A DNA stretch of 64,000 bases from a virus, in IMG/VR virus record IMGVR_UViG_3300044712_002679, positions 116,406 to 180,405 of that record. One strand, written 5' to 3'. Each line of letters begins with the position of its first letter. Positions within the stretch are counted from its first letter, which is position 1. Shown here piece by piece: positions 7,057 to 9,157 of the stretch. Made by a program: the position numbers and the translations under genes. The notes under the pieces are model-generated. The model was not told the origin of the DNA, did no database searches, and saw nothing but the letters and a program-made list of their open reading frames with translations.

Positions 7057-7132
7057 GGTGAAAGACGGGGTACGATCCCGCAAAGTTCCTGGTTCACAGC
7101 CAGGCAAGTCTACCAATTCCTCTACAATCACC
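7057..7132 (-). tRNA. tRNA-His-like (GUG), divergent, swapped T-loop ATCGTAC
   Basis: Perfect anticodon arm CCTGG-CTGTGAA-CCAGG and G-1 opposite C73, but acceptor 5/7 pairs, weak D stem, T arm GCGGG-ATCGTAC-CCCGT. Confidence 0.45.
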
Positions 7133-7142
7133 ATAATTATTG

Positions 7143-7220
7143 TCAACCAGATGGGATTCGAACCCACGTAAACCGTGATTCACAATCACGTCCCGAACAC
7201 CAAACACGGGTTGCTGGAGG
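7143..7220 (-). tRNA. Aberrant tRNA-like gene, anticodon loop TTGTGAA (GUG)
   Basis: Anticodon arm CGTGA-TTGTGAA-TCACG, D stem CCCG/CGGG, T arm GTGGG-TTCGAAT-CCCAT; acceptor only 5/7 pairs in either register. Confidence 0.4.
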
Positions 7221-7222
7221 GG

Positions 7223-7308
7223 CGGAGAAAACAGGAATCGAACCTGCACCCCAGTTACCCGAGGAACGGTTTTCCAAACCGTTGCAGTACCATTATGCTT
7301 ACTTCTCC
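7223..7308 (-). tRNA. tRNA-Ser (GGA), class II
   Basis: Acceptor GGAGAAG/TTTCTCC, anticodon arm ACGGT-TTGGAAA-ACCGT, T loop TTCGATT, discriminator G; 86 nt. Confidence 0.85.
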
Positions 7309-7535
7309 AATTTTTTAAATTTTTCTTTTAATTTTTCTTTTACTTCATCAGAAGTATAATACCATTTCATATTAATTTGCATTTCAGAAATGATAATTCC
7401 CCATTCTGCTTTTGCTGAAAATTGTGGTTTGTATTTAATTCTTTGATAAATAAATATAAATGGCACACATAAATACCAACGATATCTAATTATTCTTTCA
7501 ATTAAATTGCATTCTTGAAATCTTTTATTTTTCAT
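7299..7535 (-). CDS. Hypothetical small protein
   Basis: 78-aa ORF between tRNA genes; last 10 nt overlap the 5' end of tRNA-Ser(GGA). Confidence 0.4.
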   Translation of the reverse strand: MKNKRFQECNLIERIIRYRWYLCVPFIFIYQRIKYKPQFSAKAEWGIIISEMQINMKWYYTSDEVKEKLKEKFKKLEK

Positions 7536-7553
7536 AATTTATACATTTTTTAG

Positions 7554-7638
7554 CGGAGAGAAAGGGGGTCGAACCCTCAAGCCGAATAAACGACCGACAG
7601 ATTAGCAATCTGCTCCAATACCATTATGGGACCTCTCC
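7554..7638 (-). tRNA. tRNA-Ser (GCU), class II
   Basis: Acceptor GGAGAGG/TCTCTCC, anticodon arm GCAGA-TTGCTAA-TCTGT, T arm GAGGG-TTCGACC-CCCTT, discriminator G; 85 nt. Confidence 0.85.
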
Positions 7639-7728
7639 AAAATCAGAATACATTTTGTGGGTTTGAACCACGTTAACAAAGTTTCAGTTTGTATTTTAAC
7701 CTTTTGTTTTTGCTGTGCGTATTCTTTG
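7639..7728 (-). repeat. tRNA-derived spacer repeat: conserved trailer + free anticodon-arm-like hairpin (loop CUGAAAC) + T-arm-like hairpin
   Basis: CAAAGAATACGCACAGCAAAAA trailer; ACAAA-CTGAAAC-TTTGT (7676..7692); GTGG-TTCAAAC-CCAC (7657..7671); homologous to 7895..7977. Confidence 0.7.
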
Positions 7729-7801
7729 TGGGGTAGACTGGTTACGATCCAGTTCCTATGGATTTTCAGTCCACCGCAATGACCACATCTGCCACTACCC
7801 C
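7729..7801 (-). tRNA. tRNA-Phe (GAA), variant with swapped T-loop ATCGTAA
   Basis: Acceptor GGGGTAG/CTACCCC, anticodon arm GTGGA-CTGAAAA-TCCAT, T arm ACTGG-ATCGTAA-CCAGT, discriminator A. Confidence 0.75.
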
Positions 7802-7810
7802 AATTATTTG

Positions 7811-7894
7811 CGGAGAAAAAGGGATTCGAACCCCCACACCAGTTTCCCGATTTCACTGTTTTCGAAACAGCTAACTACACCAATAGGCTTCTCC
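7811..7894 (-). tRNA. tRNA-Ser (CGA), class II
   Basis: Acceptor GGAGAAG/TTTCTCC, anticodon arm GCTGT-TTCGAAA-ACAGT, T loop TTCGAAT, discriminator G; 84 nt. Confidence 0.8.
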
Positions 7895-7977
7895 AAGTTC
7901 AGAATACTTTTGTGACATCGAATCACGACAAATTTCAAGTTTGCTTTACCTTTTTTTGCTGTATGTATTCTTTTTTG
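7895..7977 (-). repeat. tRNA-derived spacer repeat: trailer + anticodon-arm-like hairpin (loop CUUGAAA) + T-arm-like hairpin
   Basis: CAAAAAAGAATACATACAGCAAAAA trailer; GCAAA-CTTGAAA-TTTGT; GTGA-TTCGATG-TCAC; homologous to 7639..7728. Confidence 0.7.
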
Positions 7978-8053
7978 TGGACTGTATCGGATTTGCACCG
8001 ATTGTTAGCATAATTACTTTTTTGGTTTGCTATGCTTCAAAAAGCAACAGCCC
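7978..8053 (-). tRNA. tRNA-like gene with 17-nt anticodon loop and 4-nt D loop (probable pseudogene or non-canonical tRNA)
   Basis: Acceptor GGGCTGT/ACAGTCC, T arm ATCGG-TGCAAAT-CCGAT, stem TAGCA/TGCTA enclosing AACCAAAAAAGTAATTA; same 3' trailer as the two tRNA-Phe genes. Confidence 0.35.
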
Positions 8054-8055
8054 AT

Positions 8056-8676
8056 TTATTTTTTATATTTATTTTTATTTTTTCCACCATGTGTATCTAA
8101 TGTTGCATTACAATTTGGACATAATATTCTTAAATTTGTTAATCTATGATCATTATTTATCCCATTTATATGATCTAATATTAAACTTATATGTTTTCCT
8201 TTCCAATTTTCATCTTGTCCACACATTTCACACTTTCTTTTTTTTAATCCATCTTCATATAATCTTTCTTTCAAATGTGTTGTATTAAAATTGGAATTTT
8301 CAACTAATATTAATGATAAATCTATTTTTTTATTTAAATTTTTTATTTGAAATTCATATTTAATAAAATGATCAATATTTATATCATATTTTTTAATATA
8401 TTTTTTTAATGTGTTATAAGAAGAACCAAAATTATTAATATCTAATTTAATTAAACATTCTTTATATGTTTTTGAATTTTTAACAATTTCAATTAAATAA
8501 TCTTTTTCATATTTATTTTTTACACTATAATGTGCTTCTATTTTTAATTTTTTTCGTCTTTCCTCAATTGATCTTATTGATCTATCTAATTTAGTTAAAC
8601 AATATTTTAAACCATAAATAGGATAATTTTCAATCAATATATCATCTTCATTTTTTGTCCATTTTTTATTTTTCAT
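8056..8676 (-). CDS. HNH homing endonuclease (free-standing)
   Basis: CEMCGQDENWKGKHISLILDHINGINNDHRLTNLRILCPNCNA = HNH core with flanking CxxC pairs; embedded in tRNA array. Confidence 0.85.
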   Translation of the reverse strand: MKNKKWTKNEDDILIENYPIYGLKYCLTKLDRSIRSIEERRKKLKIEAHYSVKNKYEKDYLIEIVKNSKTYKECLIKLDINNFGSSYNTLKKYIKKYDINIDHFIKYEFQIKNLNKKIDLSLILVENSNFNTTHLKERLYEDGLKKRKCEMCGQDENWKGKHISLILDHINGINNDHRLTNLRILCPNCNATLDTHGGKNKNKYKK

Positions 8677-8767
8677 TTTAAGTTATTTTTTGTAGTATAT
8701 ATAAATATTTTAAACTACAAAAAATCACTATGAACTATAAAAATTCAAAAAAATAGTTATGGGAATG

Positions 8768-8848
8768 CACGACAGAGAGGATTCGAACCCCTGAACCTTT
8801 CGGTATAGTTTTGGAGACTATCAGCTTTAACCACTTGCATACTGCCGT
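8768..8848 (-). tRNA. Class II (long variable arm) tRNA, anticodon CCA (Trp codon UGG), discriminator G
   Basis: Acceptor ACGGCAG/CTGTCGT, class II-type D loop AAGTGGTTAAA, anticodon arm ATAGT-CTCCAAA-ACTAT, variable arm ACC-GAAA-GGT, T arm AGGGG-TTCGAAT-CCTCT; 81 nt. Confidence 0.65.
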
Positions 8849-8857
8849 ATATTTTTG

Positions 8858-8941
8858 CGGAGGCGAAGGGAATCGAACCCCCAAATCATTACTGATTTAC
8901 TTGTTTTCAAGACAAGCCCCTCGTCCATTCGGACCACCTCC
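8858..8941 (-). tRNA. tRNA-Ser (UGA), class II
   Basis: Acceptor GGAGGTG/CGCCTCC, anticodon arm CTTGT-CTTGAAA-ACAAG, variable arm AAATCA..TGATTT, T loop TTCGATT, discriminator G. Confidence 0.85.
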
Positions 8942-8991
8942 AAATACAATTTAAAAGATTGTTCGTTATTTTTTGCTGTATGTATTCTTTG
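8942..8991 (-). repeat. Spacer with conserved trailer and free anticodon-arm-like hairpin (loop CUUUUAA)
   Basis: CAAAGAATACATACAGCAAAAAA trailer after tRNA-Phe; ACAAT-CTTTTAA-ATTGT at 8946..8962, loop identical to the two UUU-anticodon tRNAs. Confidence 0.65.
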
Positions 8992-9067
8992 TGGGGTGAG
9001 GTGGATTCGAACCACCATCCCTGGATTTTCAGTCCAGTGCGAAACTGACCAACTGCGCTACCACCCC
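8992..9067 (-). tRNA. tRNA-Phe (GAA), canonical T-loop
   Basis: Acceptor GGGGTGG/TCACCCC, anticodon arm CTGGA-CTGAAAA-TCCAG, T arm GGTGG-TTCGAAT-CCACC, discriminator A. Confidence 0.9.
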
Positions 9068-9084
9068 AATAAGTATAACGTATG

Positions 9085-9157
9085 TGCGTCTGGTGGGTCA
9101 CGATCCCACGACTCCATCATTAAAAGTGATGTACTCTACCAACTGAGTTACAGACGC
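9085..9157 (-). tRNA. tRNA-Lys (UUU), swapped T-loop ATCGTGA
   Basis: Acceptor GCGTCTG/CAGACGC, D arm ACTC-AGTTGGTA-GAGT, anticodon arm CATCA-CTTTTAA-TGATG, T arm GTGGG-ATCGTGA-CCCAC, discriminator A. Confidence 0.8.

What the first reader, a model, noticed from the sequence alone, without database searches (positions are those of the whole stretch)
7057..9157. tRNAs with a swapped T-loop (A54...U58 instead of T54...A58), next to canonical-loop copies
Three genes have T-loops ATCGTAC (His-like, 7057), ATCGTAA (Phe, 7729) and ATCGTGA (Lys, 9085) instead of the near-universal TTCGANN/TTCAANN. Positions 54 and 58 normally form the reverse-Hoogsteen T54-A58 pair. Both are exchanged together in all three genes. 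This is a covariation, which argues for function rather than decay. His and Phe also exist in a canonical-loop version in the same array. A swapped loop cannot receive m5U54 or m1A58. It could alter recognition by T-loop-binding host factors or nucleases.
Basis: partly seen in the sequence, partly recalled or inferred. Interest (0 to 1): 0.7.

Follow-up and report, generated by a model that had tools for sequence, protein, structure and literature searches.

The report
Phage tRNAs with a reversed T-loop pair
Three transfer-RNA genes in this phage carry a rare alternative version of the normally invariant T-loop, and the same version recurs in many phages and some bacteria, so it is a working structural variant rather than decay or a trick special to this phage.

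Summary
tRNA-His (7057-7131), tRNA-Phe (7729-7801) and tRNA-Lys (9085-9157), all on the minus strand, have T-loops AUCGUAC, AUCGUAA and AUCGUGA. The other 13 T-loops in the array are UUCGANN, and none is half-changed.

It is not specific to this phage. The A54/U58 loop occurs in at least 110 IMG/VR contigs, covering 25 isotype/anticodon combinations. About 1.7% of phage tRNAs in an unbiased sample have it, and up to 9 of 19 in one contig. It is in cultured mycobacteriophage I3, and it appears fixed in particular tRNAs of several bacterial lineages, including Bacteroidales tRNA-Gly(CCC).

U58 almost never occurs without A54. The class has further rules: G57, G52-C62, and almost never U60. All three window genes obey them. 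Close orthologues of the window's Lys and His genes keep identical stems but canonical loops, so the change here is recent and coordinated at positions 54, 58 and 60.

Best reading: functional tRNAs with an alternative T-loop that cannot carry m5U54 or m1A58. Escape from a host factor is untested, and no T-loop-directed defence is known. I found no paper describing this pair.

The parts
7057..7132 (-). tRNA-His(GUG) with swapped T-loop AUCGUAC (loop at 7076..7070), including G-1 at 7132
   Evidence: ARAGORN. Rfam tRNA 39.0 bits. It belongs to a widespread phage tRNA-His family whose closest members (L501, L515 and others) have TTCGAGT with the same T-stem and acceptor.
7729..7801 (-). tRNA-Phe(GAA) with swapped T-loop AUCGUAA (loop at 7748..7742)
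   Evidence: ARAGORN. Rfam 54.7 bits with no non-canonical pair. It belongs to a phage tRNA-Phe family with D-loop GATGTGGTCAT. In that family 109 of 123 sampled members have TTCGATY, 4 have ATCGTAA and 4 have GTCGGAA.
9085..9157 (-). tRNA-Lys(UUU) with swapped T-loop AUCGUGA (loop at 9104..9098)
   Evidence: ARAGORN. Rfam 63.6 bits, the best in the window. The MFE fold is a perfect cloverleaf. Nine orthologous copies on eight other contigs keep canonical loops.
6109..6181 (-). tRNA-His(GUG), canonical T-loop TTCGAAT
   Evidence: (49 bits)
7143..7213 (-). Third His(GUG)-like tRNA, canonical T-loop, truncated D arm
   Evidence: 29.6 bits
8992..9067 (-). tRNA-Phe(GAA), canonical T-loop TTCGAAT
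   Evidence: (59.7 bits)
9197..9282 (-). tRNA-Lys(UUU), canonical T-loop TTCGAGT, long variable arm
   Evidence: 53.8 bits
6186..6998 (-). GIY-YIG/NUMOD3 homing endonuclease gene lying between swapped His and canonical His
   Evidence: Pfam SegE_GIY-YIG 2.8e-07, GIY-YIG 9.4e-06, NUMOD3 1.7e-04. blastn similarity to T4-type SegB/SegD genes.
8056..8676 (-). HNH-type homing endonuclease gene inside the tRNA array
   Evidence: Pfam HNH 9.3e-04, below the curated cut-off. A clear homologue in L492 lies next to a canonical-loop tRNA-Lys.

Best explanation
The three genes are working elongator tRNAs that use a rare, recurrent alternative T-loop: G52-C62, G53-C61, A54, U55, C56, G57, U58, N59 and anything but U at 60.

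Shown here:
- The variant arises from canonical loops by coordinated substitutions at 54, 58 and 60.
- It has arisen many times independently.
- It is kept in the only phage copy of many isotypes and in apparently fixed bacterial tRNAs.
- The window's three genes satisfy every rule of the class.

Inferred:
- 54 and 58 still form a Hoogsteen-type A.U pair, with the purine now on the 5' side. Only A/U combinations occur and never G/C, which a Watson-Crick pair would allow.
- Position 60 must not be complementary to position 54. Otherwise 54-60 (plus 55-59) would extend the T-stem and collapse the 7-nucleotide loop.
- U55, C56 and G57 are kept, so the contacts with G18/G19 of the D-loop and the elbow are preserved.

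Consequence by chemistry: these tRNAs cannot carry m5U54 or m1A58.

In this phage the Lys and His swaps are recent, because their orthologues are canonical. The Phe swap is shared with another phage contig. The genes sit in a redundant tRNA island interspersed with homing-endonuclease genes.
For: Gene quality:
- Rfam scores are 63.6, 54.7 and 39.0 bits.
- The anticodon stems of Lys and His show compensatory changes relative to their orthologues.

Covariation:
- At least 119 full-swap loci against 5 half-swap loci in IMG/VR.
- Unbiased sample, Fisher P = 2e-15.
- No CG or GC at 54/58 among the roughly 1,600 tRNAs parsed.

Class signature:
- U60 in 2 of 193 swapped loops against 1000 of 1218 canonical loops.
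- G57 in 192 of 193 against 935 of 1218.
- G52-C62 in 98% against 72%.
- Conversely, canonical U54 loops avoid A60 or G60 (41 of 1218).

Folding: making 60 complementary to 54 turns the T-arm into a 7-bp stem with a triloop, 2.1-2.8 kcal/mol more stable.

Independent origins within single families:
- His family: 33 canonical and 4 swapped in different sub-branches, plus the window.
- Phe family: 109 TTCGATY, 4 ATCGTAA, 4 GTCGGAA.
- Lys orthologues: all canonical except the window.

Functionality elsewhere:
- L041 has 9 swapped of 19 tRNAs, each the sole copy of its isotype at that locus.
- Mycobacteriophage I3 tRNA-Gly(GCC) and tRNA-Asp(GTC) carry the loop.
- Identical swapped tRNA-His and tRNA-Met occur across many Kiritimatiellia/Lentisphaeria genomes. 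The same holds for Gly(CCC) across Bacteroidales, Phe in Chloroflexota, and Lys in Patescibacteria and Myxococcota.
Against: - There are no expression, charging or modification data for any swapped tRNA.
- The geometry of the 54-58 pair is inferred from which bases occur, not seen in a structure.
- A purely neutral alternative does not explain why swapped loops cluster in certain genomes: 3 of 16 here (P about 0.003), 9 of 19 in L041, 5 of 18 in L040. It also does not explain why two orthologous genes swapped recently in this one lineage.
- Swapped loops are uneven across isotypes and nearly absent from long-variable-arm tRNAs. The model does not explain this.
- Whether the bacterial examples are the only gene copy for their isotype could not be checked on 8-kb loci.
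Confidence: 0.75

Rival explanations
1. Adaptive escape or orthogonality. The swap is selected in phages because a host factor that reads T54/A58 no longer recognises the phage tRNA. Candidates are a T-loop-cutting toxin or defence nuclease, or the enzymes TrmA, TruB or TrmI.
For: - Swapped loops cluster within particular phage genomes (3 of 16 here, 9 of 19 in L041).
- Lys and His swapped recently in this lineage while relatives stayed canonical.
- The array is redundant for a few amino acids (Lys, His, Phe, Trp, Ser) in structurally different versions. That is what an arms race over tRNAs might produce.
- Phage tRNAs are known to evade anticodon nucleases (PMC10264068).
Against: - The same loop appears fixed in chromosomal tRNAs of several bacterial lineages, where no phage-host conflict applies.
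- Every anti-phage tRNase in the papers read cuts the anticodon arm. PMC10264068 does not mention the T-loop at all.
- Most tRNAs in the same array keep canonical loops and would stay vulnerable.
- The host is unknown, and no T-loop enzyme or nuclease gene was found among the window ORFs scanned.
Confidence: 0.15
2. DNA-level selection. The change protects the tRNA gene from a homing endonuclease or restriction enzyme that recognises the conserved GGTTCGA(A/G)TCC segment, or it creates or removes a site (TCGA lost, GATC gained).
For: - A GIY-YIG endonuclease gene lies directly next to the swapped His, an HNH gene lies inside the array, and a LAGLIDADG gene lies 6 kb away.
- T4 SegB-type genes are similar.
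- Every swapped loop turns GGTTCGA into GGATCG.
Against: - TCGA is not avoided in the window (observed/expected 0.87). GATC is mildly under-represented rather than favoured (0.67).
- Thirteen tRNA genes in the same array keep TTCGA.
- The homologous HNH gene in L492 sits beside a canonical-loop tRNA-Lys.
- DNA-level selection does not explain the RNA-type rules at 57, 60 and 52-62, or the apparently fixed bacterial chromosomal examples.
Confidence: 0.05
3. Decaying pseudogenes. The three genes are redundant duplicates drifting away from the consensus.
For: - Canonical copies of each isotype exist in the array.
- His scores only 39 bits and has two acceptor mismatches.
- The array also contains clearly aberrant tRNA-like sequences.
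Against: - The swapped Lys is the best-scoring tRNA in the window.
- The changes are confined to 54, 58 and 60 and follow the rules of a class with 193 distinct members.
- The anticodon stems show compensatory changes.
- The His acceptor mismatches are conserved across its family.
- Half-changed loops, which decay should produce, are essentially absent.
Confidence: 0.03

Closest known systems
Canonical tRNA T-loop (U54-A58 reverse-Hoogsteen pair, U55, C56, R57, Y60, G53-C61)
   Same: Seven-nucleotide loop on a 5-bp stem closed by G53-C61. U55, C56 and G57 are kept. Only an A/U combination occurs at 54/58.
   Different: The purine and pyrimidine of the 54-58 pair are exchanged. Position 60 switches from about 82% U to about 1% U. 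G57 and G52-C62 become obligatory. The review PMC7912444 calls U54 universally conserved, with eukaryotic initiators as the special case.
Eukaryotic initiator tRNA T-loop (A54-A58 pair with A60)
   Same: A54 together with a non-U, often A, at position 60. The A54/A58 phage tRNAs seen here also have A60 or G60.
   Different: The window genes have U58, not A58, so no m1A58 is possible. They are elongator tRNAs (His, Phe, Lys) of a phage. His has C60.
G54-A58 and G54-G58 T-loops selected in vivo from randomised suppressor tRNA libraries (Zagryadskaya, Doyon and Steinberg 2003; recalled from memory, not read here)
   Same: They show that the 54-58 pair can be replaced by other Hoogsteen-like pairs in active tRNAs. 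A natural G54/G58/A60 loop (GTCGGAA) occurs in the same phage tRNA-Phe family as the window's gene.
   Different: As far as I recall, A54-U58 was not among the selected combinations. Here it is the commonest natural alternative.
Phage tRNAs that evade anticodon nucleases (van den Berg et al. 2023, PMC10264068; T5 tRNA-Lys versus PARIS)
   Same: Phage-encoded tRNAs that depart from host-like consensus at conserved positions, sometimes beside canonical copies.
   Different: Those changes lie in the anticodon stem-loop, with known nucleases as the selective agent. Here the change is in the T-loop, no agent is known, and the variant also occurs in bacteria.
Phage T4 tRNA gene region with the SegB homing endonuclease
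   Same: A tRNA gene cluster interspersed with GIY-YIG and HNH homing-endonuclease genes.
   Different: No link between the endonucleases and the T-loop state could be shown.

Membership tests
tRNA (Rfam RF00005) | Cloverleaf scoring at or above the family gathering score (29 bits) | tested here: met
   Lys 63.6 and Phe 54.7 bits. His 39.0 bits.
tRNA (Rfam RF00005) | Conserved tertiary-contact nucleotides U8, A14, G18, G19, U33, G53, U55, C56, C61 | tested here: met
   All are present in the three sequences as aligned by cmscan.
tRNA (Rfam RF00005) | U54 and A58 (reverse-Hoogsteen pair) | tested here: not met
   A54 and U58 in all three. This is the finding. It is a consensus feature, not a requirement for membership.
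tRNA (Rfam RF00005) | Transcribed, processed and aminoacylated | not testable with these tools
   No RNA data are available.
Bacterial-type tRNA-His | GUG anticodon, encoded G-1 opposite C73 | tested here: met
   Anticodon loop CUGUGAA. G at 7132 precedes G1 and C73 follows the acceptor stem. The same holds in family members.
Alternative T-loop class A54/U58 (defined in this work) | G52-C62, G53-C61, A54, U55, C56, G57, U58, N59, not-U 60 | tested here: met
   His GG-ATCGTAC-CC, Phe GG-ATCGTAA-CC, Lys GG-ATCGTGA-CC, against class statistics from 193 distinct sequences.
Eukaryotic-initiator-type T-loop | A54 with A58 (m1A58) and A60 | tested here: not met
   Position 58 is U in all three. A60 is present in Phe and Lys only.
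Nuclease-evading phage tRNAs | Substitutions at the determinants of a known host tRNase, relative to the host tRNA | not tested
   The host and its tRNases are unknown. The known anti-phage tRNases act on the anticodon arm.

The most novel reading that the evidence does not exclude
The A54/U58/non-U60 loop is not just a tolerated alternative. It is selected in phage tRNA sets because it makes them invisible to, or independent of, a host activity that reads the canonical T-loop. Candidates are a T-loop-cutting defence or toxin nuclease, or a modification-dependent quality-control step. This would add the tRNA elbow as a second front in the tRNA arms race, beside the anticodon loop.
Probability: 0.15. 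Interest if true: 0.8.

Novelty: new variant of a known kind. Interest (0 to 1): 0.55.

Why it matters
The U54-A58 pair is taught as one of the near-universal tertiary contacts of tRNA. It is the substrate context for the very common modifications m5U54, pseudouridine 55 and m1A58.

A natural alternative that has arisen many times comes with simple rules: swap 54 and 58, keep G57 and G52-C62, and never let 60 complement 54. This gives structural biologists a defined variant of the T-loop motif to solve. It gives tRNA engineers a way to make tRNAs that cannot receive T54 or m1A58. It gives annotators a reason why some genuine tRNAs score low; the His gene here was missed by the default Rfam filters.

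The variant makes up a large share of some phage tRNA sets and is present in cultured mycobacteriophages. The question of whether it affects maturation, stability or recognition during infection is therefore directly testable.

Tried and rejected
- Restriction-site explanation. TCGA is not avoided (observed/expected 0.87) and GATC is not favoured (0.67) in the window.
- Homing-endonuclease immunity. The homologous HNH gene in L492 lies next to a canonical tRNA-Lys. No consistent adjacency was seen in mycobacteriophage I3.
- An inversion of the T-arm. The reverse complement of the canonical loop reads ATTCGAA, not ATCGTNN. I checked this by eye, not with a tool.
- Cultured-phage examples via tRNA-Asn similarity. 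S-CAM7, IC12 and JG004 all have canonical loops. The same is true of Stenotrophomonas phage Mendera, Phaeobacter phage MD18 and Pseudoalteromonas phage XG4. Only the Bixzunavirus hit held up.
- Literature. Seven of the eight paper searches run targeted the A54/U58 pair; none returned a paper describing it. Marck and Grosjean 2002 could not be opened.
- Relative frequency in bacteria versus phages. Only the unbiased phage estimate of 9 in 535 stands, and 3 of those 9 come from one contig.
- tRNA-related enzymes. Pfam and PHROG scans of 38 window ORFs found no tRNA-modifying, tRNA-repair or obvious tRNA-nuclease gene apart from a PIN_4 protein.
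Full report
**What the window is.** The window is 25.3% G+C. It encodes phage replication proteins: DNA polymerase, primase, helicase and a DNA transfer protein (PHROGs). Its nearest deposited relative is the 636-kb uncultured phage LR756504.1, at about 72% identity over a few percent of the query. Between 5091 and 9282 lies an array of 14-17 tRNA genes, all on the minus strand. The array is interspersed with a GIY-YIG/NUMOD3 homing-endonuclease gene (6186-6998) and an HNH-type one (8056-8676).

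**Checking the observation.** The three genes are as described.
- tRNA-Lys(UUU), 9085-9157, scores 63.6 bits against Rfam tRNA, the best in the window. tRNA-Phe(GAA), 7729-7801, scores 54.7 bits.
- tRNA-His(GUG), 7057-7131, scores 39.0 bits. That is above the 29-bit gathering score, but default filters missed it.
- Their T-arms are GTGGG-ATCGTGA-CCCAC, ACTGG-ATCGTAA-CCAGT and GCGGG-ATCGTAC-CCCGT.
- The 13 other T-loops of the array are TTCGANN, and there is no half-changed loop.
- The His gene has G-1 encoded at 7132 and C73, so it is a regular bacterial-type tRNA-His.
- Canonical-loop copies exist for His (6109-6181, 7143-7213), Phe (8992-9067) and Lys(UUU) (9197-9282).

**Is it more than chance, and is it specific to this phage?** I scanned IMG/VR for a common D-loop (AGTTGGTAGAG) followed at tRNA distance by GATCGTNNC.
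Nearly all hits have the exact tRNA spacing, and they come from contigs of 25-57% G+C.
- The same anchor with the half-swap GTTCGTNNC found 5 loci in the whole collection.
- With either base allowed at both positions, the first 131 anchors were 127 U54/A58, 4 A54/A58, 0 A54/U58 and 0 U54/U58.
- An ARAGORN census of every tRNA in those unbiased loci gave 517 UA, 9 AU, 5 AA, 2 CA, 1 GG and 1 UU among 535.

A54/U58 is therefore the commonest alternative, at about 1.7% of phage tRNAs. U58 is almost never seen without A54 (Fisher P = 2e-15 on distinct sequences). Against that baseline, three of sixteen in one array has P of 0.002-0.005.

Counts below compare 193 distinct swapped tRNAs with 1218 canonical ones.

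| Feature | Swapped (n=193) | Canonical (n=1218) |
|---|---|---|
| U at position 60 | 2 | 1000 |
| G at position 57 | 192 | 935 |
| G52-C62 | 98% | 72% |

- Canonical U54 loops in turn avoid A60 or G60 (41 of 1218).
- The A54/A58 loops also have A60 or G60.
- The simplest reading is that position 60 must not complement position 54.
- ViennaRNA supports this. Making them complementary converts each of the window's T-arms, and the canonical Lys orthologue, into a 7-bp stem with a triloop. That fold is 2.1-2.8 kcal/mol more stable than the normal T-arm.
- No C-G or G-C combination occurs at 54/58 in the roughly 1,600 tRNAs parsed. This argues that the pair stays Hoogsteen-type rather than Watson-Crick. 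That last step is inference.
- All three window genes obey all the rules.

**Independent origins, including in this lineage.**
- *Lys.* Nine orthologous copies on eight other low-G+C contigs share the window gene's 5' half (the search key). L492 and L499 also share its T-stem, and one of L492's two copies has the same acceptor stem. All carry TTCGAGT, TTCGAAC, TTCGACC or TTCGAGC. The closest (L492) differs from the window gene in the T-arm only at 54, 58 and 60. It shows compensatory changes in the anticodon stem.
- *His.* The gene belongs to a widespread phage tRNA-His family. Of 37 loci found with a pattern that allowed all four 54/58 combinations, 33 are UA, 4 are AU and none is AA or UU. 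The four swapped ones lie in different sub-branches. On an alignment of 16 members the 54-58 pair is UA:12 and AU:4 with no one-sided change. The anticodon stem also shows two-sided changes at all five pairs. The window's nearest relatives (L501, L515, L509, L521 and others) are canonical.
- *Phe.* The gene belongs to a phage tRNA-Phe family with D-loop GATGTGGTCAT. The 123 sampled members split into 109 TTCGATY, 4 ATCGTAA (the window, L366 and two copies in L367) and 4 GTCGGAA, a G54/G58/A60 loop.

**Is it functional elsewhere?**
- Some phage contigs rely on it heavily. L041 has 9 swapped loops among 19 tRNAs, each the only copy of its isotype at the locus. L040 has 5 of 18 and L091 has 4 of 13.
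- The cultured mycobacteriophage I3 carries tRNA-Gly(GCC) GCGGG-ATCGTAA-CCCGT and tRNA-Asp(GTC) GCGGT-ATCGTAA-TCCGT among 27 tRNAs. Eighteen other Mycobacterium phage records matched the same query tRNA but were not inspected.
About 90 of the 120 hits are tRNAs. They include:
  - the same tRNA-His and tRNA-Met in many Kiritimatiellia/Lentisphaeria genomes;
  - tRNA-Gly(CCC) in many Bacteroidales/Bacteroidaceae MAGs, on contigs up to 419 kb;
  - tRNA-Phe in Chloroflexota;
  - tRNA-Lys and tRNA-Met in Patescibacteria;
  - tRNA-Lys in Labilithrix and Gemmatimonadaceae.
- Some bacterial hits are dense tRNA arrays that look mobile, for example in Chryseosolibacter histidini and a Bacteroides MAG.

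The covariation argument is right and is now supported on a large scale. The statement about m5U54 and m1A58 follows from chemistry. The idea of a phage adaptation against host T-loop-binding factors is not supported. The loop is not phage-specific, and a Bacteroidales tRNA carries it. The anti-phage tRNases in the papers I could read act on the anticodon arm.

Two facts keep a lineage-specific selective cause open. Swapped loops cluster within certain genomes, and two genes swapped recently in this lineage. I give that cause about 0.15.

DNA-level causes are unlikely.
- TCGA is not avoided and GATC is not favoured in the window.
- Thirteen neighbouring genes keep TTCGA.
- The HNH homologue in L492 sits next to a canonical Lys gene.

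Decay is excluded by the scores, the compensatory changes and the absence of half-changed loops.

**Comparison with what is known.**
- A recent review states that U54 is universally conserved except for A54 in eukaryotic initiators, that A54 pairs with A58 there, and that position 60 is a conserved pyrimidine (PMC7912444).
- A saturation study of yeast SUP4 found no tolerated single change at U54-A58 (PMC4117946).
- An A58U single mutant of E. coli tRNA-Lys is still charged in human cells (PMC1785368).
- Seven searches of the paper library aimed at the A54/U58 pair found no description of it. The key paper on phage tRNA evasion does not mention the T-loop.
- Older subscription literature could not be searched, so prior mention cannot be excluded.

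I therefore rate it a new variant of a known kind. The sequences are already in public records, annotated as ordinary tRNAs.

**Limits.**
- There are no RNA-level data.
- The pair geometry is inferred.
- The host is unknown.
- The unbiased phage estimate rests on 9 tRNAs, three of them from one contig.

Noticed in passing
window 5092-5178, 8768-8848, 9197-9282 (minus strand); L001 11992-12080; L492 7990-8073, 8361-8448, 9288-9376: tRNAs for Lys(CUU), Lys(UUU), Trp(CCA), and in relatives His and Ile, carry long variable arms (82-89 nt) like class II tRNAs. That architecture is normally restricted to Leu, Ser and Tyr. Rfam scores are 47-54 bits, and the trait is conserved in related huge-phage contigs.
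   Followed up: partly
window 5309-5443 (minus strand): A 135-nt tRNA-like gene (Rfam 45.5 bits). It has normal acceptor, D and T arms, but roughly 70 nt of A-rich insert where the anticodon arm should be. It may be an intron-containing or disrupted tRNA.
   Followed up: no
window 6014-6102 and 7143-7213 (minus strand): Two marginal tRNA-like sequences. One has a long variable arm (25 bits). The other is a third His(GUG) with a truncated D arm (29.6 bits).
   Followed up: no
window 7639-7728, 7895-7975 and 8967-8991: A repeated module of about 85 nt, bracketed by the inverted repeat AGAATAC/GTATTCT, follows the swapped Phe gene and recurs downstream of the HNH gene. Both Phe genes share the 3' trailer CACAAAGAATACNNACAGCAAAAA.
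   Followed up: no
window 6186-6998, 8056-8676, 14595-15389, 39681-40418: Three different homing-endonuclease types (GIY-YIG/NUMOD3, HNH, LAGLIDADG) lie within 10 kb, and a PIN_4 domain protein lies further on. The GIY-YIG protein contains a four-fold internal repeat (DERYINGELIS).
   Followed up: partly
L010 3111-3186; L123, L438, L466: Phage tRNA-Phe genes with T-loop GTCGGAA (G54, G58, A60). As far as I recall, this is a natural instance of the G54-G58 pair previously obtained only by in vivo selection.
   Followed up: no
L148, L158, L165, L220 (tRNA-Asn); L209 (tRNA-Glu); L489 8608-8694 (tRNA-Ser of Phaeobacter phage MD18): Phage tRNAs with A54/A58 and A60 or G60, the T-loop signature otherwise known from eukaryotic initiator tRNA.
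   Followed up: no
L041 (IMGVR_UViG_3300005095_000172) 696-3792: A phage contig in which 9 of 19 tRNAs have the A54/U58 loop and one more has A54/A58. One of the nine has G55 instead of U55 (AGCGTTA).
   Followed up: partly
alignment A1 (phage tRNA-His family), acceptor pairs 5:68 and 6:67: U.U mismatches at two adjacent acceptor-stem positions are kept in 14-15 of 16 family members from contigs of very different G+C. They are therefore a conserved trait rather than damage.
   Followed up: no
census of loci L002-L240: Swapped loops are uneven across isotypes: Asp 27%, Ile 20%, Lys 12%, His 9%, and none in Leu, Ser or Val. They are about ten-fold rarer in long-variable-arm tRNAs (1 of 198 against 48 of 822).
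   Followed up: no
L289 849-4274 (Chryseosolibacter histidini), L318 2219-3354 (Bacteroides sp. MAG), L273 4582-7997 (Ramlibacter sp.): Dense arrays of up to 17 tRNA genes inside bacterial genomes, containing swapped Asn, Lys or Ile genes and other odd loops such as GTCGTAG and TCCAAAT. They are probably mobile tRNA arrays or prophages.
   Followed up: no
L495 7473-7550: An orthologue of the window's tRNA-Lys whose sequence diverges immediately after the anticodon, in a 51% G+C contig. It may be an intron or an insertion in the tRNA gene.
   Followed up: no
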